Positions 21,742 to 40,776 of a DNA stretch of 64,000 bases are shown here, piece after piece (position 1 is the first letter of the stretch; every line of letters starts with the position of its first letter). The notes below the pieces were generated by a model. That model did no database searches, had not been told where the DNA came from, and worked only from the letters and a program-made list of their open reading frames with translations. The position numbers and the translations under genes are program-made. Source of the DNA: Trypanosoma brucei (taxonomy: Eukaryota); the NCBI GenBank assembly GCA_000002445.1, contig CM000208.1:1856001-1920000 (forward strand). The letters are read 5' to 3'.

Positions 21742-22122
21742 ATCGCATAGGAAAAATTAATGGTAGAAGTAATAGGGAATGTGTGAGTGAGTCTGTGTAA
21801 ACAGAAAATCTGCAGAAGCACAAAGAACAACACGATCCATACACCCCATCACGGTAGTGATACCTGACACGGAAAAATATATATGTAACAACAACCCGTG
21901 CCACCAGTCGTTTCGCAGAGACTCAACAACTGCAAAATCCCAACGACAACGATGAGGGGATAAAACAAACAATTGAGTGCAGCAATACCATGCCTAACCC
22001 CACACCGAACCTGATACAGACACACACACCTTTAACAACACCGCCATGTGGATACAGCAACCGATAGCCCGTGTGCATGCTGCTTAGCGGCGCATATACA
22101 TACGCATGCACTAAGAGGAAGT
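21742..22122. repeat. 381-bp dispersed direct repeat, copy 1. It is 100% identical to 40396-40776 and carries a spurious 71-aa ORF.
   Basis: Read directly: both copies run from ATCGCATAGGAAAAATTAATGG... to ...GCATGCACTAAGAGGAAGT, identical by base-by-base comparison. The flanks diverge immediately outside. Confidence 0.9.
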
Positions 22123-22908
22123 AACAGAAAAAAAAAGCAGATGGAAAGAACAGGAGCAGGTGTGTGTGGGAAACTGGTTTACCGGGAGTTAGTGGACGCC
22201 TCTCGACAACGTTAGTTCGGACCCAACTGCTGTTGTCAACATGTTTTGCCGAGTCATACGTTTTCCGTTCGCGCCAAAATGAGGCCTACAACGTGCCTTG
22301 TTGTAACAAGTGATAGAATGTCTAGCTTCGCTCGACTTTCTGTGGCCCGGGTAACGTTCTCATCACGCTACAAATGTGTGAGACGCTGGCATGAGCTCGT
22401 TTTAATAACACGCATTGTAAGGTACGGTCACACACAACAAGGACCATCCCAATGATCTCTGCCTCTACCTTTCATCAAAAGCGACAGCAGGAAAAGTTTA
22501 CGGGAACGATACGGAGACGATTGGTGTGACACCAGTGGTAATGCGTGTCAGCACTCCAGCAGCTGGCGCATACAACCATTGTCTGTCACTGAGCAACAAC
22601 GCGCCTGGGTCAATTCTACCGCCTGGCGCATAGACTAATGAGAAGCTTGAGAAAAAAAGTGTTCTTTTTGTGCAGGCGAAGACACTTGGTTGCACCTCTA
22701 TAAAAACTCAAAGATAGTGAGGACACGTAACGCTGGTGGCACAGCACTCGTCAGCTGTTGGACAGAAACCCTTGCAAAGGGGATCAGTTTTACACACACA
22801 CACACACACGCAACCTTGAGCGCACGAATTACCGCAAAGTTAACCAGATTTCCTTATCCATGCACAATGATGAGACTTAGTCCGGCAGAGGCCCCTTGAG
22901 CGGTTTCC

Positions 22909-24579
22909 CTATCCCTGCAGTGGCGCAGCTGATTCACCTGCGACTAATGTCGGAAATGGATTCTGGCGTGACAAAACAACCACTTTATGCTCGCATGAGA
23001 TGTACCCACGAAGTAGACCAGTAGATATAAGCTTTGCCACCCACCAAGTCATTTCGCTATCTGTTAAGGCAAGACCATCGTCAATCTCGTCCTCGTTCCG
23101 TTGCCGTTTCGGCCTCCTTTCGGTCGTTTCACGTGCGGCGCTGTCTTGATCGGCTATCATTTTCCCTTCCCTTGCAATGTTTATATACATTGTAGTGAGC
23201 ACCCGCAGTGGTATCCGTGTACTGTCTTCACCACAAGCATCCATTGTGGCGTGCACCCGGGCCACTAGAATGAGAAAACAAAGCAATTTTGCACGCTGTA
23301 ATATAAAATACACGCCCCTTCTTCGCAAGATCGGTCCATACGCATCCACGGCGATGCTGAAGGCACGCGGGTCTCCCCGCTGTATAGCTTTAAGGATCGG
23401 CTGAAATATGTAGACGATGAGGTCATCACGTTGCTGGATCTCCTCTGGCGGCATGCGACCGCTGACAACCCCCGCAACGGTTAAGAAAAATCTCACGCGC
23501 TGCTTGTTACGATGCTGCACGATGTTGCCACTACCTGGTGGTGGGAGTAGTTGATAGGCCTGCTGCAACGCAGCGAATGCCTCGCGCGCCTGGTGATCGT
23601 AGAGCGCCACACGGCCCTTGTAATAGTAAAAAGTCAGCACCTCCGATGTCATGTGCTGCGCCGGCTTAAGCACTTCCCTGCCCGCGGCACCCCCGGTTTC
23701 GGTCACTCGTTCGGCCTGCACGATGGTGTTGATAAGCACTCGGCACTGATGAACGTTGTATCGACGGAACAATATGCTCAACAGCCCATTACACACCGCA
23801 AGGGCACCACGACGTCTAGAAAACTCCGGTGAGAGGCCGGGGTCCACAACCTGAAGAGACTGTAGTAGCTTCCGCCAACTTCGCACTATCCGTCCTGTTG
23901 CCTCGTCTATCACACCGGGGCTTGCGTCGCGAGCGGCACACGGAATGCGATGGACAAAGTGAAGAAGTAAAAGGGTGTCCCAGCCAACGGTGCCAACGGT
24001 GGTGTTGCTTTGTCGATGCTGATAGTTGGTCCGCCGCATCGAGTGAACCTCCTGGAACACTTCGAAAACGTGCAAAAGTCCAAGAGCAAAGCGGTCCTTT
24101 GTCAACTGTGTTATCCACTGCTTCCGCTCTTGCCTATCATCGCCGCCCTTCGAGTCGTCTGCATCTTTTATGGAGTACGACTCCGTGTAATACTTTACTA
24201 GTGCGCCGGTGATTGCGACCCGAAGCACCACCTCAACAAATAATTGCCGCTCCTTCACGTCATCAGCATGGCCGCTGGGTGGCACTCGTGTCTCCCCAAC
24301 TGCTTGTTCAACGCTGTCTAACAAACGCTGTCGCAGTTGATCGATGGCAGGCTCAATGCCACTATGTTCTGGCATATCTCGAATAGTCAGTGCTTCACCC
24401 ATTTCCGCATGCACAACAAAATCCGTCAGCAACATACCGTTGCGTGACGCGATCCCCTCCGCTGCGCGTTGCATCCACCGTGGTGACACCTCAAACAGTG
24501 GTGACTGTTGCGCACCCTTCTTTGCCGGCATGACTTCACCTAAAGACACAGATATAGGCAGTATGCGTTTTTTTTCCAT
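22909..24579 (-). CDS. PCI-domain protein of the CSN12/PCID2/Thp1 family (556 aa)
   Basis: C-terminal winged-helix signature ...LISTGLLRGYISCEHKVVVLSRQNPFPTL, which is characteristic of CSN12/PCID2. Confidence 0.65.
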   Translation of the reverse strand: MEKKRILPISVSLGEVMPAKKGAQQSPLFEVSPRWMQRAAEGIASRNGMLLTDFVVHAEMGEALTIRDMPEHSGIEPAIDQLRQRLLDSVEQAVGETRVPPSGHADDVKERQLFVEVVLRVAITGALVKYYTESYSIKDADDSKGGDDRQERKQWITQLTKDRFALGLLHVFEVFQEVHSMRRTNYQHRQSNTTVGTVGWDTLLLLHFVHRIPCAARDASPGVIDEATGRIVRSWRKLLQSLQVVDPGLSPEFSRRRGALAVCNGLLSILFRRYNVHQCRVLINTIVQAERVTETGGAAGREVLKPAQHMTSEVLTFYYYKGRVALYDHQAREAFAALQQAYQLLPPPGSGNIVQHRNKQRVRFFLTVAGVVSGRMPPEEIQQRDDLIVYIFQPILKAIQRGDPRAFSIAVDAYGPILRRRGVYFILQRAKLLCFLILVARVHATMDACGEDSTRIPLRVLTTMYINIAREGKMIADQDSAARETTERRPKRQRNEDEIDDGLALTDSEMTWWVAKLISTGLLRGYISCEHKVVVLSRQNPFPTLVAGESAAPLQG

Positions 24580-24754
24580 GCACTAACGCAAGCAACATGC
24601 ACATGGATAGAATAAAAGATAAAGGAAATGCGCGACACAACACAGAGGGGAGCCAGCTGTAGTATATAAAAAAAGGAACGCACGCAGGTTTTAAGAGGCG
24701 AAGCACATCAAAAGGTGGAATGAATAGCACTGATGGCCCATCTCCAAAGTGCCG

Positions 24755-25651
24755 TCACTGTTCACCCCTCTTACTCTTCTGCAGCACAACGCACCAGTTT
24801 TCCTTGTCGAAATACGACTCCCGCACAACACCACCCGCTTCCTCCACAAGGCGTTCCAATTCACCTTCTCCAAAGAGGTGATAATATCGGTGGTGCACAC
24901 GTCGCTCAGGGTCGTGCGCCTCATGCATCTCCCAGCGGATAAACACGTCTGATGCACCACTCCTTGGACGCTTTTCCGGCCGTTCCTTCGCCCAGACATA
25001 GATCAAAATGAGACCGTCTGGCCGTACAAGCCTCAACAGCTCGCGAACAGCGTCGAGGCGCCGTTCGTGTGTAGCGAAATGATGAACAACCGCAATGCTA
25101 ATCGCTGCATCAAATGCTCCGTTGCGAAACGCTGTACGACGGGCATCAGCAAGAAGAAGTTCGGTGCGACCGCGAGTCCCAAGCGACCGTGAAGACGACG
25201 GCGAAGTCTCGCTTGCTTCGTGGTCCAGTTGGTTCAGTGCTAACCGGAGAAGCCTCTCACTAAAATCAACGCCGGCAACGAACCGATACGCGGGGCCTGT
25301 TTGTCCCTCTTCGTTTGCCCCGTCGTCTGGAGCATTAGAAGTTGCCGCCATAAAGTTTTGTGCGCAAGAAAAGTATTTGCCGTTCCCACAGCCAACATCT
25401 ACCACAGCGGCATATCTCGGCAGCGACTCGATAAAGGCGCGCACCCTTGGCCACGCCTTGTAGCGAGTTGCCGAGAAATGTGTTGCAATATCATCGTACA
25501 CCTGTTGCACGTGTCGACGTTCAATACCCGCGACGTCAAGTAGTTCGGTTGGCTGAACCTCTGTCACTTTATCATTGCCTAAACGTTCCCTTTCAGTAGG
25601 GGCACTCATGAAAACTTTCGGTGCTGCAACACGAGAACTCACGTATAACAC
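24755..25651 (-). CDS. TRM9: tRNA (mcm5U34) methyltransferase TRM9-like SAM-dependent methyltransferase (298 aa)
   Basis: Motif I VVDVGCGNGKYF. Also AISIAVVHHFATHERRLDAVRELLRLVRPDGLILIYVWAKE, which matches the Trm9/ALKBH8 methyltransferase-domain signature. Confidence 0.75.
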   Translation of the reverse strand: MLYVSSRVAAPKVFMSAPTERERLGNDKVTEVQPTELLDVAGIERRHVQQVYDDIATHFSATRYKAWPRVRAFIESLPRYAAVVDVGCGNGKYFSCAQNFMAATSNAPDDGANEEGQTGPAYRFVAGVDFSERLLRLALNQLDHEASETSPSSSRSLGTRGRTELLLADARRTAFRNGAFDAAISIAVVHHFATHERRLDAVRELLRLVRPDGLILIYVWAKERPEKRPRSGASDVFIRWEMHEAHDPERRVHHRYYHLFGEGELERLVEEAGGVVRESYFDKENWCVVLQKSKRGEQ

Positions 25652-26448
25652 ACAAGGGGTATGGTGGAAACAGGGTGGACAAGAAATTGGAGGTTAACTG
25701 ACGACTCAAATACGTACGCTTACAACCGTGCTGTACTTGTCATATGCGCTCAAACTCGAAAGGACTCACGAAATTAGGAAAAGACAAAGGAAAGAGATCG
25801 CTATCCGCTACCGCCATCGGCCGTCACATATATGGATTCCATGTTCAGCTTGCGCTTGATATCATCGTGGCGGTACCTCCCTTTAAAACAAAAAAATATG
25901 AGATTGTTTTACGTGCCCCACTTTAGGTAGCTATTCGTGCCCGTACATCACCTTTTTCGCGTCCCTCCCTAGCCCTCCTCAGAAACAAAGGCGGAATTAG
26001 CGTTTTAAGTCATTCTCCCCTTGTTTTCTGTTTGCGCTACCCTCAACCGCGTTCCCTCCCTCGCTTATTTTTTCCTTTACCCATTTCACCACACCCTTCT
26101 CTTTCTTCCCCCCATGCACTCTACACTCACACTTTTTCCTTCTCAGCCTCTTTTGCCTTTATATTTACCTCCCAGATCGACGACGACAACACATATTCAT
26201 ATCGTGCGCCCCATGAAGAAGATCCACAATGATAATATCAAGGGAGAGGAAAAAGGGGGAATATAAACGCAAGCATCGTCTTCATTAGCTTATTGGCCTC
26301 CCACCGTGAGTTTTCGGGGCATACGTAGGGCCGGCATGCTGCAAGAATAGTAATAAAAAGGACAAAGGTTGAAAGATTCCACGCGGTACCCACTGGCACC
26401 CGTTCTCCTAGAAAATATGCATATTATTTCGTGCGCACATTACAGTCC

Positions 26449-27804
26449 CTACAGCAATAGCGAGAGTGGGTTCTCAACCGCATCCTTGAAGTGTTTGCAC
26501 CACTGAGACGCAACGGCACCATCAACCACGCGGTGGTCAAATGATGCGGTAAACCTTACAAACATCTCAGCTTCCGCGCCAACTGTGTACTTTCCTGTGT
26601 CCGGATCTAAAGACATACGCGGACGGGGTTTGGCGGAGCCAACAGCTACGATGAGCGCCTGCGGGGGATTTATAATAGCTGTGAAACCGGGGATACCGCT
26701 GGCTCCGAGGTTGGACACAGACACTGTTCCACCAATGAACTCGTGTGGCTGAAGTGTCCCCTCGCGGGCTTTTTTTGCAAGGACCTTCATCTCGTTCGAA
26801 ATGTCGACCAACCCACGTGCCTGTGCATCCTTAATTATGGGGGTGATGAGCCCTGTGGGAGTTGCGACTGCAACGCTCACGTCAACGGTGCGATACTGAC
26901 GGATAAAGTCCCCTTGCCACGAGCTGTTAGCCTCGGGAACCAGCATATTCGCCCGCGCCACTGCTTTGATGATATAATCATTAAGCGTGATTTTATACTT
27001 GCCGTCACCCTTGGAGTTGAGTTGCTGTACCAGGGCCATCATATTCTCTGCGCAGCACTCCTCGAAAAGGTAGTAATGCGGAATCTCCACGTTCTTTGAT
27101 TGTGTAAGGCGTTTGGCGATCGTTGACCGCATGTTCGTGACGGGGATGTCGGTGTAGTTCTGGGTTGATGGAGTCGTGGCTATTACTGGCACGACGGGCT
27201 TAGCGGCAGGCGCGGCGGCGGGAGCAGCGTGTTCACGCTTTGACGCTGCAGCTTCAACGTCCTTCCTCACGATTCGGCCCACCCCTCCCCCAGTGCCCTC
27301 GATGGTGTCGAGTGATACATTGAGCTCCGCCGCCGTCTTTCGGGCCAGGGGAGACGCCTTCACACGACCACCAGCCTCCTTTCCGCCGGCTGGTAGTGGC
27401 GCCACTTGTGTGGGTGAGGGAACCTCCTGCACCTTTGACTGAGTTGCCGCAGGGGAACTGCCAGCGGCCTGCCAGTTCTTAACCTCATCTGAGTTAACAC
27501 CTGACGCCTCATCCACAATAAGGCACACCGCATCGCCGACTGTGGCCTCTTCCCCAACTTGAACAAGAATACGGGCGACAAAGCCGTCCTCTGACACATT
27601 GTCGTACGAAACAACGGCTTTGTCTGTTTCAACCTTGCACCATGTATCGCCCGTTTCAACTGCGTCTCCAACCTTCTTGACCCATTCAGATATTTTTCCC
27701 TTCTCCATGGTTGGAGAGAGAGCTGGCATAGGGATCGGCGTAACTGTCAGAAAACGAGCAAAGCACACAGGAAAGATGTGTTGCGCGACGGGACGGCGGA
27801 ACAT
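26449..27804 (-). CDS. Dihydrolipoamide acyltransferase E2 (pyruvate dehydrogenase E2-like), mitochondrial. The start is set at the internal Met (MFRRPVAQ...); the ORF track extends 74 codons further, to 28026.
   Basis: Lipoyl domain PALSPTMEKGKISEWVKKVGDAVETGDTWCKVETDKAVVSYD (lipoyl-Lys in TDKA). E3-binding region. Catalytic domain ending FDHRVVDGA (DHR active site). The presequence MFRRPVAQHIFPVCFARFL looks like a mitochondrial targeting peptide. ATG at 27804 verified. Confidence 0.85.
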   Translation of the reverse strand: MFRRPVAQHIFPVCFARFLTVTPIPMPALSPTMEKGKISEWVKKVGDAVETGDTWCKVETDKAVVSYDNVSEDGFVARILVQVGEEATVGDAVCLIVDEASGVNSDEVKNWQAAGSSPAATQSKVQEVPSPTQVAPLPAGGKEAGGRVKASPLARKTAAELNVSLDTIEGTGGGVGRIVRKDVEAAASKREHAAPAAAPAAKPVVPVIATTPSTQNYTDIPVTNMRSTIAKRLTQSKNVEIPHYYLFEECCAENMMALVQQLNSKGDGKYKITLNDYIIKAVARANMLVPEANSSWQGDFIRQYRTVDVSVAVATPTGLITPIIKDAQARGLVDISNEMKVLAKKAREGTLQPHEFIGGTVSVSNLGASGIPGFTAIINPPQALIVAVGSAKPRPRMSLDPDTGKYTVGAEAEMFVRFTASFDHRVVDGAVASQWCKHFKDAVENPLSLLL

Positions 27805-28866
27805 GTGTGTTAATTTCTTCAACCGCTTCTTCTTACTTCCGACTAGCAAACAAATCAGGAAAAAGATTATCGCACGTGAAATACGGATTTTGCTACACGA
27901 CAACCTTTTTTTTTCTGATGAACGAAGCCTTGTTGTCGCGATTGCTATTTTATGTAGCACCTCGTCAAAGAGTGATGCGGTACCACGGAACGGAACATAT
28001 GGAATGAGAAAAACCCGCTGTGTCACCGTTCACAGTAGTTGTTAAGACGGTGACTGCAACGTTCAAACCTTTTCCGCCGAAGCCCCACACACTCATTCGG
28101 ATGTCCAATCACTTACACATGCACATGGATAAGTGAAGTCGGAAATAATCATTTCTTCGCAAAAGATGAAGGCACACCTCACCACTTCATCCAACGTCAA
28201 GTTACTCACCACGGCTACAACGGCAAAACTCCAACGCAACAACGGGTAAGGAAACCACACACACACACACACAAAATCGGAGGTTCCTCCAAAAGCAGGT
28301 GCCCCACACCAACCTTTCACAGTAGGGCTGGGGCCAGAAGACTGGCTTCGGCCAAAGTTAACACAATATTAGTAAACGAACGCACAGCATGCGCTGCTGG
28401 AACCCCGGGGGAGGCACGAGGGGGAGATTCTTTACGCTGTCCTTACGCACGATGCCCTTTACGTCAACTGGAAACAAAAACACTCCCCACAGATACTGAC
28501 TGTATTACTGGGCTGATAGTGGACCACCATGGCGACTTTACCGCATTCACATGTACAGGTGTGCGTGGCGTTGAGCAGTCGTAAGCGGAAAGCGGAAATT
28601 TCATGGAGCTAAGGTGAAAAGTTCAGTAGCTGGCATACCACCAGCCGTCACTCACATAACACTCCATCAAATCAACTGCATCCAATAAGACAGCTCTTGC
28701 TGCTTTTGCACCCCTTTATCGTCTTTCCTTCGTTCATTTTTGGGGGGAGATGTATCGATATTACACCCCATTCACACCGTTTTAGCCCACCTACCTCTTC
28801 CCCCATCGTCACCACAACGGAAAACACACCAACACTTCTGAATGCCCCAGCACCGCAGCGCTAGAG

Positions 28867-32251: not shown

Positions 32252-33091
32252 TCACTTGACCCACGGTGGGTGCTCGCGCGGTCGAAGAGACAACCCTCTC
32301 TCCCCTCCCTGTTCCCTCACTACGCGGCAGTCACCCACGGCTCCCTCTCCGAACGGCACCCAGTTGAGGCGCCGGCAACACTCCCAGCCGACAGGCTCGA
32401 CGACCGTTGTTTGGCTGTCATACGTCCACCCGCTCATATCACACATGGTGAAAGTGCAGCGGTAAAATGTTGCCCCGCGAACGTCCCACCCACTCATGCT
32501 AGCACGGCAGAATGTGCAATGCGAAAAACGACCACAGCGGGCATCGACACCAACCGCATCGGTAGCCAAAAATGTGCACGAGTGAAACTGTGCCCCTATA
32601 AAGCTGGACCGCCTGATATCAGTCAGGTTGAAGGTACTGTGGCTCACGAAAGCGCCACCGAGGGAGGCAGAAACGAGAGCACATCTGTTGAAACTGGCCG
32701 AAAGGTTAGTGCAAGCAAAGTCGAGGGAACTAAAACACCGGCCCTCTAGGATGCTACCAATTTCAATCTCCTTTGACCTAACACTTTCTACCCTCCTACA
32801 ACCACCATCCGCAGCTCTCTGCCCTCCAGTGCTCTCGCCTAAGGCTTCCAACACCGCCCCGCGCACAAGCGGCTGCACCTCCATCTCCGCCTCCAATGGA
32901 AAACTTAACAACTTCGCATATGGTACCGCCGGAGATGGTGAAGCGGAGGAGGAAACACGATGCGAATCGAGATTTTTTCCAACCCTTATCATTGACGTTT
33001 CAAACGGTAGAGAAAGCAAAGCTACCTTGCGCCGAAGGTTGAGAGCGTCCAAGAGCCGGCTGATTACACCGAGAGAGAGACAACGCTCCAT
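32252..33091 (-). CDS. Pentapeptide-repeat-like protein (279 aa)
   Basis: C-terminal half shows a 5-residue periodicity: FSHCT FCRAS MSGWD VRGAT FYRCT FTMCD MSGWT, with a central F/M/L every fifth residue. This is typical of pentapeptide-repeat (right-handed quadrilateral beta-helix) proteins. Confidence 0.4.
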   Translation of the reverse strand: MERCLSLGVISRLLDALNLRRKVALLSLPFETSMIRVGKNLDSHRVSSSASPSPAVPYAKLLSFPLEAEMEVQPLVRGAVLEALGESTGGQRAADGGCRRVESVRSKEIEIGSILEGRCFSSLDFACTNLSASFNRCALVSASLGGAFVSHSTFNLTDIRRSSFIGAQFHSCTFLATDAVGVDARCGRFSHCTFCRASMSGWDVRGATFYRCTFTMCDMSGWTYDSQTTVVEPVGWECCRRLNWVPFGEGAVGDCRVVREQGGERGLSLRPREHPPWVK

Positions 33092-33783
33092 GCAACACGA
33101 CGAAAAAAATATATAGAGCTTCTCAGGACGAAGTGTACAACACTCACTCCGAAAGGAGCGGCCCGTTGGCCTAACGCTATCAAACCTTGGTAGAAAAGGG
33201 AAGGATGAAGAAGGAAGAGTGGTCTGGTGGGTAGTTCAGCTACTTAAAAGCCTCATATGTGCGGTCGCACAATTAAACTGGGATAACTAAGTCTCCACCG
33301 GAGTTACAAACGTGCTGACATACGAGAAAACTGCGAAAGAGTGCGCTTTTGGCCAACAGTATCATCGTCACCCCTACATCTCCGCTAGTTTCACTACCGA
33401 GTCCGCATCCGCAGGCTCCAACTACTTCAGCACCTAGCACCTAACACTGCAACTCCCCGTGTGTAAATAGTGGGGGGCGCATAAGAAATAAAATGGGGAA
33501 GTGTGCTAACTTAATGTTTCGACTTGGCCCATGGGTTGGTGGGAGACATGAGTACTATGTGGAGGCAAACCGTACAGCACGCCTTAGGAACCCTTCTTTG
33601 ACAATCTGTTATTGTTAATCCCTTCTCGAACGGCCCACTTCCTGTACCTAAAATCTGTCCTCTCATCCTTGCATTGTGGAAAATACAATAACCACACCCA
33701 GATACAGATAGGCATGTGCACTTTCACTGACCCGTTTCATGGTAGCCGCACTTTCCGTTCTATATAAGGAAAGAGAGTATGGG

Positions 33784-34932
33784 TTAACGAGTAGAACGCG
33801 AGCCAAAGCCCATGGGGGGTCTGCGTGCTACATAGGGTGGCTTTTTGGAGGCCGGTACATCGCCATAACTGCGAACTGCAGCGGGATCAACAGAAACGAC
33901 GAAAGGCTGATGGGGGAGTGTCCTCGCGCTGTACGCACAGGTAGCAGGCGCATAACAGGCGTGGTGTCGTGGGGGAGTGACCCTCGCGGGGGTAGTCTTC
34001 GTGGGGGTGGGTGAGCAATCCCTAATTTCTGGAAGGAACTGCCCCGTAAGCGGGGTCGCGTCCTCGGCATCTGCTGTCCGCCCCGCCGTCATGGTTGTCC
34101 CTGCACCGGTATGAAACGTAGACCCGTCAAATATATTACTAACGCCACGTGTTGCACCGTACCGTGGAGGTGAGGTGCGAGTTGCCCGCATGCCGCCCGG
34201 GCACAAGGGAGACGCTTGTGGATCGGCCAGTTGCGCTCCCTTGAGTACCTGCACCGCCTCCTTATTCAACGCACAAACCCCACGGACAAACGCTGTCCTC
34301 ATTTTCTCCTCTAAGTTCTCGCTGTGGCGCCGTTCCTCCTCTATTACCTTATTCAAAACCTCTAATTGCCCAACCAACTCAGCCTCACTACACTTCCATT
34401 GCGACTGCTCAGCCACTGCGAGTCGGTGATGCCGCCGTGCAGCCGCGAGAAGACGCCATTGCGTGTAAACATGGTAAGCACGAATGCCATTGATATGGCA
34501 TTCAATGGTTTTATACAGTTTCTTACGGTGGCGTTTCCTCAGCACCCACAATTCCCAATCGTGAAACCGCTTCTGCATCCACATCCGCCGATTCGCATTA
34601 CCCAAGCCCCCAACAAGACGAGACATAGTTTCTTTTTGTCTCTCGACTTCCCTTAATGCGCCTACAGCCGTCACCTCTATCTTGCGCCTTTCGTCGAGTA
34701 TCGCATTTTCACGGCGGACAGCCTCAGCGTGTAAAGACTCCTTGATGCTTTGGTGCTGTTGATTTACGTAACGGCCCAACATGGTTAAGATGTCCTCCCG
34801 CATTCTAGAGGTATAAACGTCAACGTTGCAGCCAACATCGTGGAGAAATCCCTCATGCTGGCCAATAGCTCCGTCCGGCATCCTCCACTGCACTGAAAAC
34901 TTAGGTGTCAGCAAAAAAAAAAAATGAGTCAA
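33784..34932 (-). CDS. Hypothetical coiled-coil protein with a Pro/Arg-rich C-terminal tail (382 aa). The alternative start at Met18 (MPDGAIGQ..., ~34881) is more plausible.
   Basis: Array orientation. Heptad-like charged region (ERRKIEVTAVGALREVERQKETMSRL..., EEERRHSENLEEKMRTAF). No enzymatic motif. Confidence 0.45.
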   Translation of the reverse strand: MTHFFFLLTPKFSVQWRMPDGAIGQHEGFLHDVGCNVDVYTSRMREDILTMLGRYVNQQHQSIKESLHAEAVRRENAILDERRKIEVTAVGALREVERQKETMSRLVGGLGNANRRMWMQKRFHDWELWVLRKRHRKKLYKTIECHINGIRAYHVYTQWRLLAAARRHHRLAVAEQSQWKCSEAELVGQLEVLNKVIEEERRHSENLEEKMRTAFVRGVCALNKEAVQVLKGAQLADPQASPLCPGGMRATRTSPPRYGATRGVSNIFDGSTFHTGAGTTMTAGRTADAEDATPLTGQFLPEIRDCSPTPTKTTPARVTPPRHHACYAPATCAYSARTLPHQPFVVSVDPAAVRSYGDVPASKKPPYVARRPPMGFGSRSTR

Positions 34933-35730
34933 TACGCATACAACGAAGATTAGGAAACAGTATTGGGCTGAGGAATGGAGAACAGTAGAAGGTCATCTCA
35001 ATTAACAAATGAGCGGATAAACCCACCCTTCGAGCGAGCGAGTAGAAAACAGAGGATGAAGCTAAATAGCTCCCGTCGTTCTCCACACGGATTTACACGC
35101 TAAGTGAAGCATTGCCAATGACACGCAGTTTCTACACCTACAACACCAAATATTGTAATGGTGCATACCAACCCTTTCATTCGCTCTTTTTTTTTTAACG
35201 TTCATTATTGTGTGAAAATACCCGTGGTGGTCATCAACCACCAACGGCACACCATAACCACGCATCCGACTACCTGCCTTACCGAGAATTACCCCACACC
35301 ATTTCCCCAAATCATTCCGGCCGTAGGGGGGTGCAAGACTCAATTTTTCGTGTGTGCGCTTGTTATTATTGATACCACTGCAGAGGCGCAATTTTTTTTC
35401 CGATATTATTATGCGTCACAAACAACACATAAGCTATTCTAAGCGTAATTCACGAATGTTATACCGTTTGTCGTGTGCTCCCGTCAAGAATAGGTGCGTT
35501 GGTCCTACTAACTACCACAGTGTCCGAAGGCCCGTGGGGTACGCCCGCAGAACACAAAGACACCCCGACACGTCGTCCCTCACCAGTGTCGTTCATCGTT
35601 GAAAATACCATTTTCTTGCACACCAACCCCAGTGCATGCACTCACACTGCGAAACGCCAGCCCAAACAACACTCCCATTATAGAGAGTTACCTCCAAGGG
35701 AAGGGTGGCACATGCCTGAAAATGGTGGCT

Positions 35731-38700
35731 CTACTTTGTTTCGAATAGTTCCTTTGTAGAGGGGTCTGGTTTCAACCCAATAGCCTCCTCATCCACCAGC
35801 ATAGTGCAACCTTGCTGCTCCTGCAGCTTAGCTGCTTGTTGTGGATTTAGCGAGCTTCCCTGCGTCTGAAGAGACGCCTTCCGTTGCTTCAATTCCGCAT
35901 AGTCTCGAGCGGCTAGATCTGCTCGAAGGCTTGGGTTGTTCGCTATCCGCTCGTGTGTCAGAGCTTCACGGTACAGAAGAGAGGTGCCGTAACAGAATGT
36001 CTGCCGTGACGGATCGGCAAGATGAGATTCCAGTGCGTGAATAGTTTGGTCCAATTCCCGCCTGTGCACCAGGTGCGACAACTTCTCCCGCACTTTCACC
36101 AGTTCTCGGAGAAGAACCTTCTTTTGTTTTTCATCACCTGGCAAGAGAATTTGGCAAACCCGGCGTAGTGCATCATTGATTAGTTTTTGCCCACGGTTGC
36201 GGGACGCAAGTGCGCCCTGAGTATATATGTATAGATAGGCAGGCTCATACATATCCCACATTTTCGCAACTTCCTCACAACTTTTCGGGTGGACACGGAA
36301 TGCGAAGTAAAGGTGGGTCCAGAAAAGATAAGGATCGGATCCCTCGCACTCCTGAGATCGCCACCGTAGTATTCGCTTCCGAAACACCTCATCAGCAACC
36401 CTGTCCACAGCCGCGAAGTATTCCTCCGTCTCAGGCAACTGTGCGCCTCCACGGGAACGTTGCTCCATGTTTTTCAAGAGTAACTCATTACCAGGCGAAT
36501 TTTTAACACACGACTTCACTCTGGCGGTAATGCACTCCCCAAAGGCAGGCAGATTTGCATGCACTACCGCGAGCCTGTAGGGTAACTCAGAAAAAGGCTC
36601 GATCCAATGTGGTGGCTCCTTTTCCGCAAAAAGTCTGTCAACAACGCGCTCCACATCTTTTATATGCTCTTCCACGCCGGAGCCAGGCTCATAAACCCGC
36701 ATCAGATACTTTGCCCTCGTTAGCAGAGGCGCTTTCCATGATGGCGGAAGCCGCTCAGCTGCAGTTCGGGTTGCCAAGTGGTAGAGGTTCAGACACTTTT
36801 CCCGATAGATGCGAGCGGTCTGGAAGCGACCGTTCCGGAACATTAGCTCACTGTGTTCGTAGTATAGGTCACCCAGGTGCCGCATCCAGAGATGTTCTGC
36901 AGTTTCTTGTGTCAGTGGTGCCCCTTCCAAGAAAAGCCGGGCCCGTTCAGGAAAGGGATGCACTGACGGATGTGTCTTCTTGTTCACGTTCTCCAGGCAG
37001 CGATCCGAGATGTCAAGCGCAAGAGTTATGCGGCCGCGCCGCTCATTGTACCATATGTACTCCGTTTCATCGATAACCGGATACCACCTCCTAGAGGTTC
37101 CAGAATGCCAAAGGCCCTCAGCCTTGTCCAAATGCCCAGAGATCTCCTCATAAATAGCGTTTTCACCATCAAGAAAGTCCTTCTCCTCATACTCATACGG
37201 AGGATCGGAGTCAGGAATAGGTATCTGCACAATCCCATTAGATGCTTTAGCATAGTTAGAAAACCATTCGATAGAGTCCTCAAACAGTTCTTCGGCCCTC
37301 GTACGAAAACGAGTATCAGCAAAGTCAATACACAGGCGCTGCAAATGTTTCCCCGCGTAAAAACAAAGGGCACCACGACACCACTGATAAAAGGCTTCGA
37401 CAGTAGCATCGCGTGCTGAATCACGGACCCCTTCCAGACGCATTGGACATTTAGCTCTGGCGTCGTTCACGTGTCGTTTGAGAAACTCCATATGGGTCTC
37501 GAGCTGCTCGATGCCTTGAAATTCATTCACAATGAATTCACTAAGTTCACTGTTTATCCAGTTAATAAATGGCTTTCCCAGAGGTTCGTACGCCCGGTCA
37601 CGGACCATGATGGCGTAACGCTGAGCGGGGTTGTTGCGAACCGAATCAAGCTCCAAAGAAGTCATTTCCTGTATGAAGTTCATGAAGTTGGGACCCAGAA
37701 GCTTGCATTTTGCAGAAGCACGACGAAGGATTTCGTCAGCCTCCGCCTTCACGGTCTTTCCCTCAGTTACACGGTTACCCTTGAATCTGTAGAAATCCGA
37801 CAGAAAATGTTTAGTGTGTGCTTCAAATATCATGCGGAAAATAGCCTCCAACTCCTCCGGAATCTGAGGATGATCCCCAACGTCTCCGCGACGGAAGCGG
37901 TCCATCACATCCATCAACATCCGCTCACACTTGTCCTCAGTTGTTACTTGCGTAAGGTTGCCGAACTCTGTCATGCTTTGCCGAAACGTATCACGATATG
38001 CCCTCCACGTTTTCTCCAGGTCCGCTTTGTTGAAGTCTATTGCATCCCCCTTCGCCACTCCACGGTACGGATCGGCAATAGAGTCCGATTCCCATGGAAG
38101 CGAAGGAAGAAGGATGTCCGGGTCATAGTGTACCTTCGCCTTTCGCACCCGATCCTGTCTTTCTTTGCGTAGTAAATCAGATCTTTTTGCTGATCCACCA
38201 GAAACACTATTGTCTTGTGGGCCCGCATCACCTTTTCCTGATGCCACCTCCCGGTAGAGTGGGAGGGGCTTGTAGCCCTCCACTAATTCAGGTAATGACT
38301 TCATTTTTCTCATTTTGAGCTCGTCAAAAGACGAAACACCGGCAACAGCGTCATCATTTGTAATACGAGTGTCTTCAGTCAGTTGCGGTGGATCGTAGTA
38401 TTCGTGGGTGTCAACAATCCGCCTTTCAAGGGGATCATGTGTCAAACCATATGATTGAATCATCGGCTCAGTTTCCACGAGGGTTCTGCGGTACCACTCG
38501 GGCATACCTTCCGTTTCACGACCACAGGGAACATGATACAGTTCCGTTGGGATGTCCGGTTCGGCGCCTTGCGGACGTTTTTTCACCTCAATGAACCCCG
38601 CTGGGGTTCCTTTGTGTGGCTTCCCTTCTTTAGATGCCTGTCGCTCCGTTTCGCTGCTCGTGCAAGAGGCTTCCGAGAGCTTCTCAGATTCATTGAGTTT

Positions 38701-40029
38701 ACACCCAATGACAGGAACTGCCGAACTTTCAATCTGCTCCACAATCCTTCCTGCATCACCTAACTTGGAGTCAGATGTTGTCTCCAGAGTTCTTGTGGTC
38801 CTTTCAATTTTTTCCTCCACGAGGGAGCGAAGTGCCGGACGATCATCGTACTGCTTTGAAGCCTTGTAGTGAGCTTTCATTAAAGCAGGAACAGGATCCT
38901 GTCCAGCCTGTCTTGCGATATCAGCTGTTTGCTCCAGCATTTCATTTTTGATGTTCGCATGGGCAGCAATAGCAACGCCCTGTTCCACAGTGACCCCCGT
39001 TGGGAGTGGGGCCATGTCGGCTTTCGGTAGGCCTGAAATAGGATCTAATCGCGGTGAATCAATTCCCTTGGCACACTCTAACGCTTGCCTTGCACCGTAT
39101 GCTTGAAGTTTCATTTTGGTACGAGCAACTTCCAGTGGGTCCGCGGTGCCCGAAAGGGCTTGGTAGGTCTGCTCAGGATCAAGATCAACTACCCCAGAAA
39201 CGATCCCGTTGTATACGTCAGCCATTTCCAGCTGCCGCTGCTCCTCCTCCCCCAACAGTTCATGTTCGGCCTTGAGGCTTTGGTGCACAGCATTTCGCTC
39301 TTCACCCTCGATAAGCCACATTCGATCTTTATATTTTGTATCAGCTAAATGCTTCCAAGAGGTATCGGACCAACGCTGATCCGATGGAAGAACACGACGC
39401 CTGCCGTGAGCATCATAGTGATCAAGGTAGTCCGTGTATCCCTGGGGCCAAATCATACGATCCTTCTGAATTTTAAAAGAACGATCCTTCCAATGCAGAT
39501 ACCATTCTTGCTCACGGTCAATGGGATCCTGAATGTATAAATCGAAACGATCACGGACATCTTGAACCATCTCCTCCGGTGTCGGTATTACCGTTTTCCT
39601 CCAACGTACCTCCCATGGGAGACCATCCACATCCTGTTGTCCTTGCAACATGTCACGGCGAACCTGCTGTGAACTCTTATTGGTGCGCTCACCCGGCCCG
39701 CCTTCACCAAACCGCTTTTGCATGTCACGCTCTTTTTCCATATCGGTTCGCGTGCGATCCGCCTCTGAGACGTCGGGCAAAGTAACATACTCTAGGTTGT
39801 TCAAACCAAACTGGATATGGTGAGTTAAATCAGGAGGCTCAACAACAGAAATTTGATGCCCGGTAGTAGGGTCTGCGTTCGGTTGACTTCGCCGCTGCTC
39901 ACGTGACAATCCCGCTGTGTCCCGACGTTGCACGCGGATAGTAAAAGACGGCCAGCTGTTGTCTGTTGTTGAGATCAAAAGTTCTCCAGAAGAAAAGGGC
40001 AATGATGCCCGAATTTGTAGGCGACGCAT
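35731..40029 (-). CDS. Very large hypothetical protein (1432 aa) with no recognisable domain
   Basis: Uninterrupted 4.3 kb ORF in the array orientation. It is preceded about 370 bp upstream by copy 2 of the 381-bp repeat. Confidence 0.6.
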   Translation of the reverse strand: MRRLQIRASLPFSSGELLISTTDNSWPSFTIRVQRRDTAGLSREQRRSQPNADPTTGHQISVVEPPDLTHHIQFGLNNLEYVTLPDVSEADRTRTDMEKERDMQKRFGEGGPGERTNKSSQQVRRDMLQGQQDVDGLPWEVRWRKTVIPTPEEMVQDVRDRFDLYIQDPIDREQEWYLHWKDRSFKIQKDRMIWPQGYTDYLDHYDAHGRRRVLPSDQRWSDTSWKHLADTKYKDRMWLIEGEERNAVHQSLKAEHELLGEEEQRQLEMADVYNGIVSGVVDLDPEQTYQALSGTADPLEVARTKMKLQAYGARQALECAKGIDSPRLDPISGLPKADMAPLPTGVTVEQGVAIAAHANIKNEMLEQTADIARQAGQDPVPALMKAHYKASKQYDDRPALRSLVEEKIERTTRTLETTSDSKLGDAGRIVEQIESSAVPVIGCKLNESEKLSEASCTSSETERQASKEGKPHKGTPAGFIEVKKRPQGAEPDIPTELYHVPCGRETEGMPEWYRRTLVETEPMIQSYGLTHDPLERRIVDTHEYYDPPQLTEDTRITNDDAVAGVSSFDELKMRKMKSLPELVEGYKPLPLYREVASGKGDAGPQDNSVSGGSAKRSDLLRKERQDRVRKAKVHYDPDILLPSLPWESDSIADPYRGVAKGDAIDFNKADLEKTWRAYRDTFRQSMTEFGNLTQVTTEDKCERMLMDVMDRFRRGDVGDHPQIPEELEAIFRMIFEAHTKHFLSDFYRFKGNRVTEGKTVKAEADEILRRASAKCKLLGPNFMNFIQEMTSLELDSVRNNPAQRYAIMVRDRAYEPLGKPFINWINSELSEFIVNEFQGIEQLETHMEFLKRHVNDARAKCPMRLEGVRDSARDATVEAFYQWCRGALCFYAGKHLQRLCIDFADTRFRTRAEELFEDSIEWFSNYAKASNGIVQIPIPDSDPPYEYEEKDFLDGENAIYEEISGHLDKAEGLWHSGTSRRWYPVIDETEYIWYNERRGRITLALDISDRCLENVNKKTHPSVHPFPERARLFLEGAPLTQETAEHLWMRHLGDLYYEHSELMFRNGRFQTARIYREKCLNLYHLATRTAAERLPPSWKAPLLTRAKYLMRVYEPGSGVEEHIKDVERVVDRLFAEKEPPHWIEPFSELPYRLAVVHANLPAFGECITARVKSCVKNSPGNELLLKNMEQRSRGGAQLPETEEYFAAVDRVADEVFRKRILRWRSQECEGSDPYLFWTHLYFAFRVHPKSCEEVAKMWDMYEPAYLYIYTQGALASRNRGQKLINDALRRVCQILLPGDEKQKKVLLRELVKVREKLSHLVHRRELDQTIHALESHLADPSRQTFCYGTSLLYREALTHERIANNPSLRADLAARDYAELKQRKASLQTQGSSLNPQQAAKLQEQQGCTMLVDEEAIGLKPDPSTKELFETK

Positions 40030-40395
40030 TTGGGGTCTATCTGTGGAACCTTCGATCTACAATATGCTCTCCGCACCGTGTGGCCCAGCAGCACGTCTGT
40101 TCCCTCCAAGTGAAAAAATGGGGCGTAAGCGAAAGATATGAATAGGTCAAGTTGCTAAACAGAGGTATTGCTGCAATTTTCCCTTTCACTGTGGATACAG
40201 AATATTGTCTACTTGCCGACTGCCACAACTGCCTTGAAGGGGGGTGGGTATCACTGAGTCTCCAAAATGGTCCTCAACTCACTCAGTGCGCGAGTACCGA
40301 GTTTCTACATTTAATGAAATAAAGTCTGGAGTAGAGAGAATGGGTAGAGGAAGTCAATACTTCCCTACATTTTAACAAACAGCCTTAGAGGAACG

Positions 40396-40776
40396 ATCGC
40401 ATAGGAAAAATTAATGGTAGAAGTAATAGGGAATGTGTGAGTGAGTCTGTGTAAACAGAAAATCTGCAGAAGCACAAAGAACAACACGATCCATACACCC
40501 CATCACGGTAGTGATACCTGACACGGAAAAATATATATGTAACAACAACCCGTGCCACCAGTCGTTTCGCAGAGACTCAACAACTGCAAAATCCCAACGA
40601 CAACGATGAGGGGATAAAACAAACAATTGAGTGCAGCAATACCATGCCTAACCCCACACCGAACCTGATACAGACACACACACCTTTAACAACACCGCCA
40701 TGTGGATACAGCAACCGATAGCCCGTGTGCATGCTGCTTAGCGGCGCATATACATACGCATGCACTAAGAGGAAGT
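40396..40776. repeat. 381-bp dispersed direct repeat, copy 2. It is 100% identical to 21742-22122 and starts 28 bp after the FtsH stop codon.
   Basis: Identical sequence and an identical spurious 71-aa ORF (40411..40626 versus 21757..21972). Confidence 0.9.

What the first reader, a model, noticed from the sequence alone, without database searches (positions are those of the whole stretch)
21742..40776. A 381-bp intergenic sequence is duplicated with 100% identity, 18.65 kb apart, and each copy sits just upstream of a large orphan gene.
Copy 1 is at 21742-22122 and copy 2 at 40396-40776. Both have the same orientation and are identical at every base I compared. The flanks diverge immediately outside the repeat. 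Copy 1 lies about 84 bp upstream of the start of the 1006-aa hypothetical gene. Copy 2 begins 28 bp after the FtsH stop and lies about 370 bp upstream of the 1432-aa hypothetical gene. Perfect identity in non-coding DNA points to one of three things: very recent duplication or gene conversion, strong functional constraint, or an assembly artefact. One functional possibility is a shared UTR or processing element that carries the trans-splice acceptor or 3'UTR determinants and co-regulates the two orphan genes. The sequence does not resemble the conserved 5' hallmark of ingi/RIME/SIDER retroposons, as far as I can judge by eye.
Basis: seen in the sequence. Interest (0 to 1): 0.55.

Follow-up and report, generated by a model that had tools for sequence, protein, structure and literature searches.

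The report
Low-copy intergenic direct repeat, gene-converted
A 381-base stretch of non-coding DNA occurs twice, 18.65 kb apart, on chromosome 10 of a Trypanosoma brucei-group parasite; it is a real, old, low-copy duplication whose two copies were recently made identical by gene conversion, and it is an ordinary example of a class of repeats already catalogued in trypanosomatids.

Summary
Positions 21742-22122 and 40396-40776 are 100% identical direct repeats with sharp boundaries.

The window is Trypanosoma brucei-group chromosome 10. All genes here lie on the minus strand. The flanking genes are not orphans: they are a FAN1-type nuclease (Tb927.10.7540) and a protein conserved across kinetoplastids (Tb927.10.7610).

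Both copies sit at the same two loci in independent assemblies, so the duplication is not an assembly artefact. In T. b. gambiense the two copies differ at 7 substitutions plus 1 indel. Between strains the element diverges at the ordinary intergenic rate (1.3-2.1%, against 1.4-1.9% for other intergenic DNA and about 0.5% for coding sequence). Copy-diagnostic sites and variants shared across copies point to interlocus gene conversion, most recently copy 1 into copy 2.

I found no RNA family, no unusual fold, no coding potential and no similarity to the RIME element in the same window.

From published mRNA lengths, the element lies in the 3'UTR or processing region of the upstream genes (Tb927.10.7550 and TbYme1, Tb927.10.7620). 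At copy 1 its pyrimidine-rich end probably drives FAN1 trans-splicing. Co-regulation of the downstream genes is not supported.

It meets the criteria for the low-copy intergenic repeats catalogued in trypanosomatids by Ubeda et al. 2014. Interest is low.

The parts
21742..22122 (-). Copy 1 of the 381-bp element. It lies in the intergenic region between the 556-aa gene (Tb927.10.7550) and the FAN1-like gene (Tb927.10.7540).
   Evidence: It is 100% identical to copy 2. It is present at the orthologous place in T. b. gambiense DAL972 (L006) and T. equiperdum OVI (L005/L007).
40396..40776 (-). Copy 2 of the 381-bp element. It starts 27 nt after the stop codon of FtsH/TbYme1 (Tb927.10.7620) and ends 366 nt upstream of the ATG of Tb927.10.7610.
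   Evidence: It is present at the orthologous place in DAL972 (L002), T. b. equiperdum IVM-t1 (L004) and the Logan contig from ERR7929162 (L009). The OVI scaffold ends 32 nt inside it.
21749..21781 (-). Pyrimidine-rich 3' end of copy 1 (CATTCCCTATTACTTCTACCATTAATTTTTCCT). It is the last pyrimidine tract before the FAN1 ATG. The first AG dinucleotides downstream are at 21729, 21726 and 21723. I infer it is the trans-splice polypyrimidine tract for FAN1.
   Evidence: Sliding-window pyrimidine scan and AG positions. This is inferred from sequence, not from mapped spliced-leader reads.
40403..40435 (-). The same pyrimidine-rich tract in copy 2, followed by an AG at 40384. It is probably at most a minor or latent splice signal at this locus.
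   Evidence: Two further tracts lie closer to the ATG (next part).
40108..40357 (-). Unique sequence downstream of copy 2 that holds two more pyrimidine tracts (40357-40321 and 40146-40108; AG at 40104). The proximal tract is the likely major splice signal of Tb927.10.7610. The inferred poly(A) site of TbYme1, at about 40160-40215, falls in this stretch.
   Evidence: for the tracts. mRNA lengths of 2669 and 4999 nt against ORFs of 1974 and 4299 nt. Predicted TbYme1 5'UTR of 51-106 nt.
21874..22049 (-). Interval inside copy 1 that must contain the annotated poly(A) site of Tb927.10.7550.
   Evidence: The mRNA is 2706 nt with an annotated poly(A) site and the ORF is 1671 nt. The upstream intergenic region is only 175 nt, so the 3'UTR is 860-1035 nt. 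Counted from the stop codon at 22909, that gives this interval.
18638..21586 (-). FAN1-like VRR-NUC nuclease gene (982 aa; Tb927.10.7540), downstream of copy 1.
   Evidence: Pfam VRR_NUC, E = 2e-11. 100% identical to the T. equiperdum protein named VRR-NUC/Fanconi-associated nuclease. The ORF length of 2949 nt matches the published table.
22909..24579 (-). 556-aa conserved hypothetical gene (Tb927.10.7550), upstream of copy 1.
   Evidence: for the ORF. The gene is called at the same place in DAL972. The ID is inferred from gene order between Tb927.10.7570 and 7540.
35731..40029 (-). 1432-aa pan-kinetoplastid conserved protein (Tb927.10.7610), downstream of copy 2.
   Evidence: 100% identical to T. 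brucei TREU927 XP_822995 and T. equiperdum, and 64-77% identical across trypanosomatids. The ORF length of 4299 nt matches the published table.
40804..42777 (-). FtsH-family i-AAA protease TbYme1 (Tb927.10.7620), upstream of copy 2.
   Evidence: Pfam AAA plus Peptidase_M41. The ORF length of 1974 nt matches Tb927.10.7620. Tb927.10.7620 is described as TbYme1 in PMC8630662.

Best explanation
The element is a real, non-coding, low-copy dispersed duplication of 381 bp. Both copies lie inside one minus-strand polycistronic transcription unit of T. brucei-group chromosome 10.

The duplication predates the split of the T. brucei subspecies. Since then the two copies have exchanged sequence by interlocus (ectopic) gene conversion. 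In the lineage of this window a recent conversion, most simply copy 1 overwriting copy 2 across the whole element, erased all differences. That event, rather than selection, explains the 100% identity.

The element has no dedicated function that I can detect. It is transcribed as part of the polycistron and serves, as any intergenic sequence there does, as UTR and processing sequence:
- At copy 2 it makes up most of the 3'UTR of TbYme1 (Tb927.10.7620).
- At copy 1 its 5' part ends the 3'UTR of Tb927.10.7550 and contains that gene's poly(A) site.
- At copy 1 its pyrimidine-rich 3' end is the probable polypyrimidine tract for trans-splicing of FAN1 (Tb927.10.7540).

As a pair of 381-bp direct repeats, the copies are also a potential substrate for homologous recombination that would excise or duplicate the 18.65-kb, seven-gene segment between them.

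Shown: existence, conservation of both loci, rate of divergence, variant patterns, and the absence of RNA, ORF or RIME signals. Inferred: the direction and timing of the conversion, and the positions of the splice and poly(A) sites.
For: 1. Exact 381-bp direct repeat with sharp edges.

2. Both loci carry the element in independent assemblies. DAL972 has copy 1 (L006) and copy 2 (L002). T. equiperdum OVI has copy 1 (L005/L007), and its scaffold stops 32 nt into copy 2 (L001). IVM-t1 has copy 2 (L004). The Logan contig from ERR7929162 has copy 2 (L009).

3. In DAL972 the copies differ by 7 substitutions plus 1 indel, which is about the same as the orthologous differences between strains (5-6). 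In the window they differ by 0.

4. Variant patterns, numbered on the transcribed strand:
- Positions 7 and 56 are copy-diagnostic in the other strains (copy 1 has T and C; copy 2 has C and G). The window's copy 2 carries the copy-1 states.
- Positions 190 and 193 are G,G in both window copies and in OVI copy 1, but A,C in both DAL972 copies and in the IVM-t1 and ERR7929162 copy 2.
- The haplotype 139C plus an AT insertion is shared by DAL972 copy 1 and the IVM-t1 and ERR7929162 copy 2.
- These splits are mutually incompatible without exchange between the copies.

5. Divergence from the window:
- Against DAL972, IVM-t1 and ERR7929162: element 1.3-2.1%, other intergenic DNA 1.4-1.9%, coding sequence 0.35-0.5%.
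- Against the near-identical OVI assembly: 0%, 0.35% and 0.03% respectively.

6. No Rfam match. Fold z-score -0.72. No homologue of any reading frame. Chance-level similarity to RIME.

7. Pyrimidine tracts and AG positions, combined with TriTrypDB-derived mRNA lengths taken from PMC4845500 and PMC4285177, place the element in the 3'UTR or processing zone of the upstream genes.
Against: I had no read-level data. A polishing or iterative-correction step that maps reads ambiguously to both copies could also make two 98%-identical copies identical.

The whole genome could not be searched, so more copies may exist elsewhere.

The direction of conversion rests on two diagnostic sites and three other strains, with no outgroup.

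The splice and poly(A) positions are inferred from total mRNA lengths annotated on strain TREU927, not from mapped sites in this strain.

Only a handful of variable sites exist, so a short constrained sub-element cannot be excluded. One example is the variant-free stretch at transcribed-strand positions 247-374.
Confidence: 0.7

Rival explanations
1. The duplication is real, but the perfect identity is an assembly or polishing artefact. Reads from two roughly 98%-identical copies were mapped ambiguously, and both copies were corrected to one consensus.
For: In every other genome where both copies, or copy 2, could be read, the copies differ at several sites. Short-read assemblies break at the element's edges, which shows that assemblers struggle here. 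The origin and assembly method of the window are unknown.
Against: The independent T. equiperdum OVI assembly has exactly the window's sequence at copy 1, including the G,G state at positions 190/193. The concerted A,C versus G,G pattern is also seen in the DAL972 assembly, so exchange between the copies is real in any case. A mixed consensus would more likely give a mosaic or ambiguity than the full copy-1 haplotype.
Confidence: 0.17
2. The element is a selected regulatory cassette. It would be a shared 3'UTR or processing module that co-regulates the genes it touches, and its identity would be maintained because its sequence matters.
For: It lies in 3'UTR or processing territory at both loci. 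It ends in a pyrimidine tract followed by AG at both loci. Both loci have kept it in all T. brucei-group genomes examined. A 128-nt stretch (positions 247-374) shows no variant in any sequence.
Against: Between-strain divergence equals that of neutral intergenic DNA. There is no structure signal. Its position relative to stop and start codons differs greatly between the loci (27 versus 786 nt after the stop codon; 155 versus 366 nt before the ATG). The published bloodstream half-lives of the four neighbouring mRNAs differ (4.6, 8.7, 13.6 and 13.9 min). With 11 variable sites in 381 nt, a 128-nt variant-free gap is not unusual.
Confidence: 0.06
3. The element is a relic or non-autonomous copy of a mobile element (a retroposon or other transposon) with additional copies elsewhere in the genome.
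For: It is a discrete segment with sharp edges at two unrelated loci. Its size is similar to short trypanosomatid retroposons. Each copy is followed by a partial recurrence of the element's first 12 nt: ACTTCC, 6 of 6, after copy 1, and 9 of 12 after copy 2. That could be a degraded target-site duplication.
Against: It has no similarity to the RIME/ingi 5' hallmark or to the rest of the RIME at 53113-53602. There is no poly(A) or A-rich tail shared by the copies on either strand. There is no ORF with homologues. No third copy occurs in the 64-kb window or in the related loci I fetched.
Confidence: 0.05
4. The element carries a small non-coding RNA gene, for example a snoRNA, duplicated along with its flanks.
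For: Trypanosomatid snoRNA genes sit in intergenic regions of polycistrons and are often repeated (my own general knowledge, not tested here).
Against: No Rfam family matches, even at E <= 10 within the element. The fold energy is no better than that of shuffled sequence (z = -0.72). There is no excess conservation.
Confidence: 0.02

Closest known systems
Low-copy intergenic repeated sequences (direct and inverted repeats, grouped into 'RAGs') of trypanosomatids, described by Ubeda et al. 2014, PLoS Biol (PMC4028189)
   Same: That screen used four criteria: non-coding or intergenic, 0.2-2.5 kb, at least 85% identical, and on the same chromosome. Direct repeats typically lay 1-100 kb apart, and many families had only two members. 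The paper reports at least 773 such repeats in T. brucei, with PCR-proven rearrangements at four of them. The present pair is 381 bp, 100% identical, direct and 18.65 kb apart, so it meets every criterion.
   Different: The T. brucei list is not published in the files I hold. The four tested examples are on chromosomes 2, 3, 6 and 7, so I could not confirm that this chromosome 10 pair was catalogued. No rearrangement product was tested here. Amplification has not been observed in T. brucei.
Concerted evolution by interlocus gene conversion of duplicated sequence in trypanosomatids, for example the T. brucei chromosome 4/8 duplicons (PMC2212663) and the tubulin arrays (PMC1621084, PMC1533823). 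These papers were found and I read only their abstracts.
   Same: The paralogous copies are more alike within a genome than orthologous copies are between genomes, and variants are shared across loci.
   Different: Here the converted unit is a short, purely non-coding segment with no homology beyond its 381 bp. It is not a gene array or a large duplicon.
Short retroposon-derived elements in trypanosomatid UTRs: RIME/ingi (T. brucei), SIDER1/2 (Leishmania) and SIRE (T. cruzi)
   Same: Similar size range, and a location in intergenic or 3'UTR sequence, where such elements can supply processing or stability signals.
   Different: It lacks the conserved 5' hallmark, tested against the RIME in this window. 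It has no A-rich tail, shows no evidence of many copies, and has no clear target-site duplication.
Coupled trans-splicing and polyadenylation signals of kinetoplastid intergenic regions: a polypyrimidine tract plus AG, with the upstream gene's poly(A) site set by the downstream splice signal (summarised in PMC9380746 and PMC9639853, abstracts seen)
   Same: The element ends in a pyrimidine-rich tract followed by AG. At copy 1 the inferred poly(A) site of the upstream gene lies roughly 90-270 nt upstream of that tract.
   Different: This is generic intergenic anatomy, not a property specific to the element. At copy 2 the same tract is apparently bypassed in favour of a proximal tract.

Membership tests
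Low-copy intergenic repeated sequences of trypanosomatids (Ubeda et al. 2014) | Non-coding, located in intergenic regions | tested here: met
   Both copies lie between ORFs. No reading frame has a homologue.
Low-copy intergenic repeated sequences of trypanosomatids (Ubeda et al. 2014) | Length 0.2-2.5 kb with at least 85% identity | tested here: met
   381 bp at 100% identity. The copies are about 98% identical in DAL972.
Low-copy intergenic repeated sequences of trypanosomatids (Ubeda et al. 2014) | Copies on the same chromosome, direct or inverted, typically 1-100 kb apart | tested here: met
   Direct orientation with 18,654-bp spacing in one window. The same spacing and order hold on DAL972 chromosome 10.
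Low-copy intergenic repeated sequences of trypanosomatids (Ubeda et al. 2014) | Recombination products (circle or deletion) detectable at the repeats | not testable with these tools
   This needs junction PCR or split-read analysis of sequencing reads.
Interlocus gene conversion / concerted evolution | Paralogues within a genome are more similar than expected from the age of the duplication (orthologous divergence) | tested here: met
   The window has 0 differences between copies. Orthologous copies differ by 5-6 substitutions and the DAL972 paralogues by 7. The duplication is shared by all T. brucei-group genomes examined.
Interlocus gene conversion / concerted evolution | Variants shared between different loci that are phylogenetically incompatible with a simple tree grouping all copy-1 sequences against all copy-2 sequences | tested here: met
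   Positions 190/193 split by strain in both copies. Position 139 plus the AT indel are shared by DAL972 copy 1 and the IVM-t1 and ERR7929162 copy 2. Positions 7 and 56 split by copy, except in the window.
Interlocus gene conversion / concerted evolution | Identity confirmed in reads that are anchored in the unique flanks | not testable with these tools
   No read data are available.
ingi/RIME/SIDER retroposons | Conserved 5' hallmark of about 79 nt | tested here: not met
   Local alignment of the element (both strands) to the first 79 nt of the RIME at 53113-53602 scores 10. Shuffled sequence scores 9.7 +/- 1.4.
ingi/RIME/SIDER retroposons | A-rich 3' tail and a target-site duplication flanking each copy | tested here: inconclusive
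   The copies share no A-tail. There are partial recurrences of the element's first 12 nt after each copy (6 of 6 and 9 of 12), but the pattern is not that of two independent target-site duplications.
ingi/RIME/SIDER retroposons | Many dispersed copies in the genome | not testable with these tools
   None of the searchable DNA collections holds a T. brucei genome. Only two copies occur in the window and the fetched loci. A metagenome scan found nothing.
Structured non-coding RNA gene | Match to a described family, or a fold more stable than shuffled sequence | tested here: not met
   No Rfam hit within the element. z = -0.72.
Kinetoplastid trans-splicing / polyadenylation signal region | Polypyrimidine tract followed by an AG upstream of the ORF, with the upstream gene's poly(A) site a short distance upstream | tested here: met
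   The tract at 21781-21749 is the last one before the FAN1 ATG, with AGs at 21729, 21726 and 21723. The poly(A) site of Tb927.10.7550 is bounded to 22049-21874 from published mRNA lengths.
Kinetoplastid trans-splicing / polyadenylation signal region | Spliced-leader and poly(A) reads mapped at these positions | not testable with these tools
   No RNA-seq data are available. Only total mRNA lengths were found in supplementary tables.

The most novel reading that the evidence does not exclude
The 381-bp pair could be more than a passive duplicate in either of two ways.

(a) It could be a portable 3'UTR and mRNA-processing cassette. It carries its own poly(A) region and polypyrimidine tract, was copied into a second intergenic region, and is kept homogeneous because both host loci depend on it.

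(b) It could be a working recombination substrate. Its direct repeats would let T. brucei excise or duplicate the 18.65-kb, seven-gene block Tb927.10.7550-7610, which includes PDH-E2. This would be the Leishmania-style stochastic amplification mechanism operating in a trypanosome core chromosome.
Probability: 0.1. Interest if true: 0.5.

Novelty: new member of a known kind. Interest (0 to 1): 0.2.

Why it matters
It matters little beyond housekeeping.

- It is a clean, datable example of ectopic gene conversion between short non-coding repeats in the T. brucei core genome.
- It is a place where short-read assemblies break and where polishing can homogenise the two copies.
- Read-mapping at the 3'UTR of TbYme1 and of Tb927.10.7550, and UTR-targeted RNAi or reporter designs, will cross-hit the other locus.
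- It corrects two 'orphan' labels. One gene is a FAN1-type nuclease and the other is a strongly conserved kinetoplastid protein.
- If the direct repeats do mediate excision or duplication of the intervening seven genes, that would be a further example of the rearrangements Ubeda et al. detected by PCR in T. brucei.

Tried and rejected
1. Looking for extra genomic copies through called ORFs. I joined all stop-free stretches of 25 aa or more from the six frames of the element into one query and searched the 5.8-billion protein collection. There were no hits. This says nothing firm about copy number.

2. Scanning JGI metagenome contigs for an invariant 27-mer. There were 0 hits. This was expected, because no trypanosome genome is in the searchable DNA collections.

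3. Exact-protein look-ups of the window's FtsH, 556-aa, 365-aa and TREU927 FAN1 proteins. None is on record, so the TREU927 and Lister 427 loci could not be fetched. All 12 look-ups are spent.

4. ncRNA hypothesis. The Rfam gathering and E-value searches and the folding test were all negative.

5. Retroposon hypothesis. I tested it against the RIME found in the window, and similarity is at chance level.

6. Paralogy of the two downstream genes as the reason for the shared upstream sequence. BLASTP finds nothing (best E = 1.2).

7. Per-gene splice and poly(A) site tables. The supplements of PMC9639853 do not list these genes. Only total mRNA lengths were recovered.

8. Outgroup (T. congolense, T. 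vivax) intergenic regions. These could not be fetched, so I could not decide which locus is ancestral or when the duplication arose.


Full report
OBSERVATION

Aligning the two regions with 100-nt flanks shows 381 consecutive identical columns, 21742-22122 against 40396-40776. An exact string comparison confirms this. The copies are in the same orientation and 18,654 bp apart.

Outside the element, identity drops to chance level. The only exception is a 4-of-6 match in the six bases on the low-coordinate side.

A sensitive blastn (word size 7, E <= 10) of the element against the whole window finds only these two copies plus chance-level matches of 12-23 nt.

CONTEXT

Every ORF of 200 aa or more between 1 and 47 kb is on the minus strand, apart from one 233-aa ORF lying antisense within the 1432-aa gene. 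The element must therefore be read as its reverse complement, which is T/G-rich and ends in a pyrimidine-rich tract.

The 1432-aa protein is 100% identical to proteins of T. brucei TREU927 and T. equiperdum OVI. It is 64-77% identical to orthologues across Trypanosoma, Leishmania, Leptomonas and Porcisia.

The '1006-aa' ORF is a TTG-extended version of a 982-aa protein with a VRR-NUC domain, named Fanconi-associated nuclease. Its ATG is at 21586.

The window is therefore T. brucei-group chromosome 10, and neither downstream gene is an orphan. The two proteins are unrelated to each other.

I assigned gene identifiers as follows:
- Tb927.10.7620 is the FtsH-family protease TbYme1 (PMC8630662).
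- Tb927.10.7570 is PDH-E2 (PMC3868518).
- The window has exactly the expected number of genes between those two.
- Published ORF lengths match the window's ORFs: 1974 nt for 7620, 4299 for 7610 and 2949 for 7540.

In transcription order the two loci are:
- Tb927.10.7550 (556 aa), then copy 1, then Tb927.10.7540 (FAN1).
- Tb927.10.7620 (TbYme1), then copy 2, then Tb927.10.7610.

IS THE DUPLICATION REAL?

I fetched orthologous loci through exact-protein look-ups.
- T. b. gambiense DAL972 chromosome 10 has copy 1 (L006) and copy 2 (L002) at the same places.
- T. equiperdum OVI has copy 1 (L005/L007), identical to the window. Its 108-kb scaffold stops 32 nt inside copy 2 (L001).
- T. b. equiperdum IVM-t1 has copy 2 (L004).
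- A Logan contig from run ERR7929162 has copy 2 (L009). One from ERR7929159 stops 6 nt short of copy 1 (L008).

The boundaries are the same in all of them. The duplication is therefore real and older than the T. brucei subspecies radiation. It is not an assembly duplication.

WHY ARE THE COPIES IDENTICAL HERE?

The variant table (positions on the transcribed strand) is informative.
- In DAL972 the two copies differ by 7 substitutions and one AT indel. That is about as much as orthologous copies differ between strains (5-6 substitutions).
- Positions 7 and 56 distinguish copy 1 (T, C) from copy 2 (C, G) in DAL972 and IVM-t1; ERR7929162 can be read only at position 56, where it agrees. The window's copy 2 carries the copy-1 states.
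- Positions 190 and 193 are G,G in both window copies and in OVI copy 1. They are A,C in both DAL972 copies and in the IVM-t1 and ERR7929162 copy 2.
- The haplotype 139C plus an AT insertion occurs in DAL972 copy 1 and in the IVM-t1 and ERR7929162 copy 2.

These three site patterns are mutually incompatible on any single tree. The simplest explanation is repeated exchange between the two loci, that is, interlocus gene conversion. The latest event, in the window's lineage, would have converted copy 2 to the copy-1 sequence over the entire element.

Selection is not needed to explain the identity. Against DAL972, IVM-t1 and ERR7929162, the element differs from the window by 1.3-2.1%. Other intergenic DNA differs by 1.4-1.9% and coding sequence by 0.35-0.5%. 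Against the closely related OVI assembly the figures are 0%, 0.35% and 0.03%.

I cannot exclude that the final homogenisation is a polishing artefact, because no reads are available. The identical copy 1 in the independent OVI assembly argues somewhat against this.

WHAT IS IN THE ELEMENT?

- No Rfam family matches at gathering thresholds anywhere in the window except the tRNAs. Nothing matches within the element at E <= 10.
- The RNA fold of the transcribed strand is no more stable than shuffled sequence (z = -0.72).
- All reading frames are short. A joined six-frame query found no homologue among 5.8 billion proteins.
- The window contains a genuine RIME at about 53113-53602, with the retroposon 5' hallmark and a target-site duplication. 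DAL972 has an additional RIME that is absent from the window.
- The element aligns to this RIME, and to its first 79 nt, no better than shuffled sequence does. The copies share no A-rich tail.
- One oddity: the 12 nt following each copy partly repeat the element's first 12 nt, ACTTCCTCTTAG. After copy 1 the sequence is ACTTCCGGTGAA. After copy 2 it is CGTTCCTCTAAG. This could be microhomology left by the original duplication event or a decayed target-site duplication. I could not resolve which.

HOW IT PROBABLY WORKS IN THE TRANSCRIPTS

In kinetoplastids a polypyrimidine tract plus AG directs trans-splicing of the downstream mRNA, and it also sets the poly(A) site of the upstream mRNA. This is general knowledge, summarised in the abstracts of PMC9380746 and PMC9639853.

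At copy 1:
- The element's terminal tract (21781-21749) is the last pyrimidine tract before the FAN1 ATG. The first AGs follow at 21729, 21726 and 21723.
- The Tb927.10.7550 mRNA is 2706 nt with an annotated poly(A) site, against an ORF of 1671 nt. The upstream intergenic region is only 175 nt.
- Its 3'UTR is therefore 860-1035 nt, and its poly(A) site lies at 22049-21874, which is inside copy 1.

At copy 2:
- The element starts 27 nt after the TbYme1 stop codon.
- The TbYme1 mRNA is 2669 nt against an ORF of 1974 nt.
- With the predicted 5'UTR of 51-106 nt, the poly(A) site falls at about 40160-40215. That is just upstream of a third pyrimidine tract (40146-40108, AG at 40104), which would give Tb927.10.7610 a 74-nt 5'UTR.
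- This in turn fits the 4999-nt Tb927.10.7610 mRNA, with a poly(A) site about 40 nt upstream of the next pyrimidine tract.

The element therefore belongs mainly to the 3'UTRs of the upstream genes: all of it in TbYme1, and its 5' part in Tb927.10.7550. Only at copy 1 does its 3' end plausibly act as the downstream gene's splice signal.

The published bloodstream-form half-lives are 4.6 min (7550), 8.7 min (7540), 13.6 min (7620) and 13.9 min (7610). They give no hint of co-regulation.

All positions in this section are inferred from sequence and from TREU927 annotation lengths, not from mapped reads.

COMPARISON WITH WHAT IS KNOWN

Ubeda et al. 2014 (PMC4028189) screened trypanosomatid intergenic regions for repeats of 0.2-2.5 kb with at least 85% identity on the same chromosome. 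In L. major they found 1,926 repeats in 507 families, of which 242 families had only two members. Direct repeats typically lay 1-100 kb apart. They also report at least 773 such repeats in T. brucei, with PCR-confirmed rearrangements at four of them on chromosomes 2, 3, 6 and 7.

The present pair meets every criterion of that class. The T. brucei list is not available to me, so I cannot say whether this pair was already catalogued.

Recombination between the two copies would excise or duplicate 18,654 bp carrying the seven genes Tb927.10.7550-7610.

Membership in the ingi/RIME/SIDER family fails on the hallmark test. Membership in any Rfam family also fails.

VERDICT

This is a real feature that is ordinary in kind: a low-copy intergenic direct repeat subject to gene conversion.

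Its 'recent gene conversion' option is the best supported. Its 'functional constraint' and 'co-regulated orphan genes' ideas are not supported.

Whole-genome copy number and read-level confirmation remain untested. Interest is 0.2.

Noticed in passing
window 53095-53622: A complete RIME retroposon of about 490 bp lies on the + strand, starting CCCATGGCGATGCCTGCCACC. It is flanked by a 17-18-nt target-site duplication (tttttttttactctgc).
   Followed up: partly
L006 20865-21385 (DAL972); corresponds to window ~10716-10729: T. b. gambiense DAL972 carries a RIME insertion with a poly(A) tail and an AATTAACCGGTGCC target-site duplication, near the tRNA-Gly region. It is absent from the window, so it is a strain-specific retroposon insertion polymorphism. 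It is 92% identical to the window's RIME.
   Followed up: partly
window 21728-21741 and 40382-40395 (minus strand, just 3' of each copy): The 12 nt after each copy partly repeat the element's own first 12 nt (ACTTCCTCTTAG). After copy 1 the sequence is ACTTCCGGTGAA (first 6 identical). After copy 2 it is CGTTCCTCTAAG (9 of 12). This may be microhomology or a target-site-duplication-like trace of how the segment was copied.
   Followed up: partly
window 35731-42777; protein P0019: A EukProt gene model of 2260 aa fuses FtsH domains with a homologue of the 1432-aa protein. The FtsH-then-1432-aa gene order is therefore conserved in a distant kinetoplastid, and the fusion is probably a read-through model. 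The 1432-aa protein is very strongly conserved (64-77% across trypanosomatids and 34-50% in more distant hits). It has no Pfam domain and is classed 'Mito.pathway' in the tables from PMC4845500.
   Followed up: no
window 11515-11585, 48001-48205, 51649-52008: There are six tRNA genes on mixed strands: Gly-GCC, Pro-AGG, Thr-AGT, Leu-AAG, Met-CAT and Pro-TGG. The 48-52 kb clusters lie in the part of the window where no ORF of 200 aa or more is called (about 46.1-53.6 kb). GC skew weakens or briefly reverses from about 50 kb. This could mark the boundary of a transcription unit.
   Followed up: no
window 47521-47574 and 60195-60248: Long homopolymer runs are present: about 22 C at 47.5 kb and about 16 G at 60.2 kb. 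They were reported as a weak inverted repeat pair.
   Followed up: no
L005 8756-8765 (T. equiperdum OVI); corresponds to window ~22830: The OVI scaffold has a 10-N gap about 75 nt after the stop codon of the 556-aa gene, and no gene is on record for that ORF in OVI. The same scaffold terminates 32 nt inside copy 2. Both show how this region troubles short-read assembly.
   Followed up: partly
window 37471-38172 (+) and 53647-54412 (both strands): Several long ORFs are probably spurious. One is a 233-aa ORF antisense within the 1432-aa gene. The others are overlapping 249-aa and 253-aa ORFs on opposite strands, right after the RIME.
   Followed up: no
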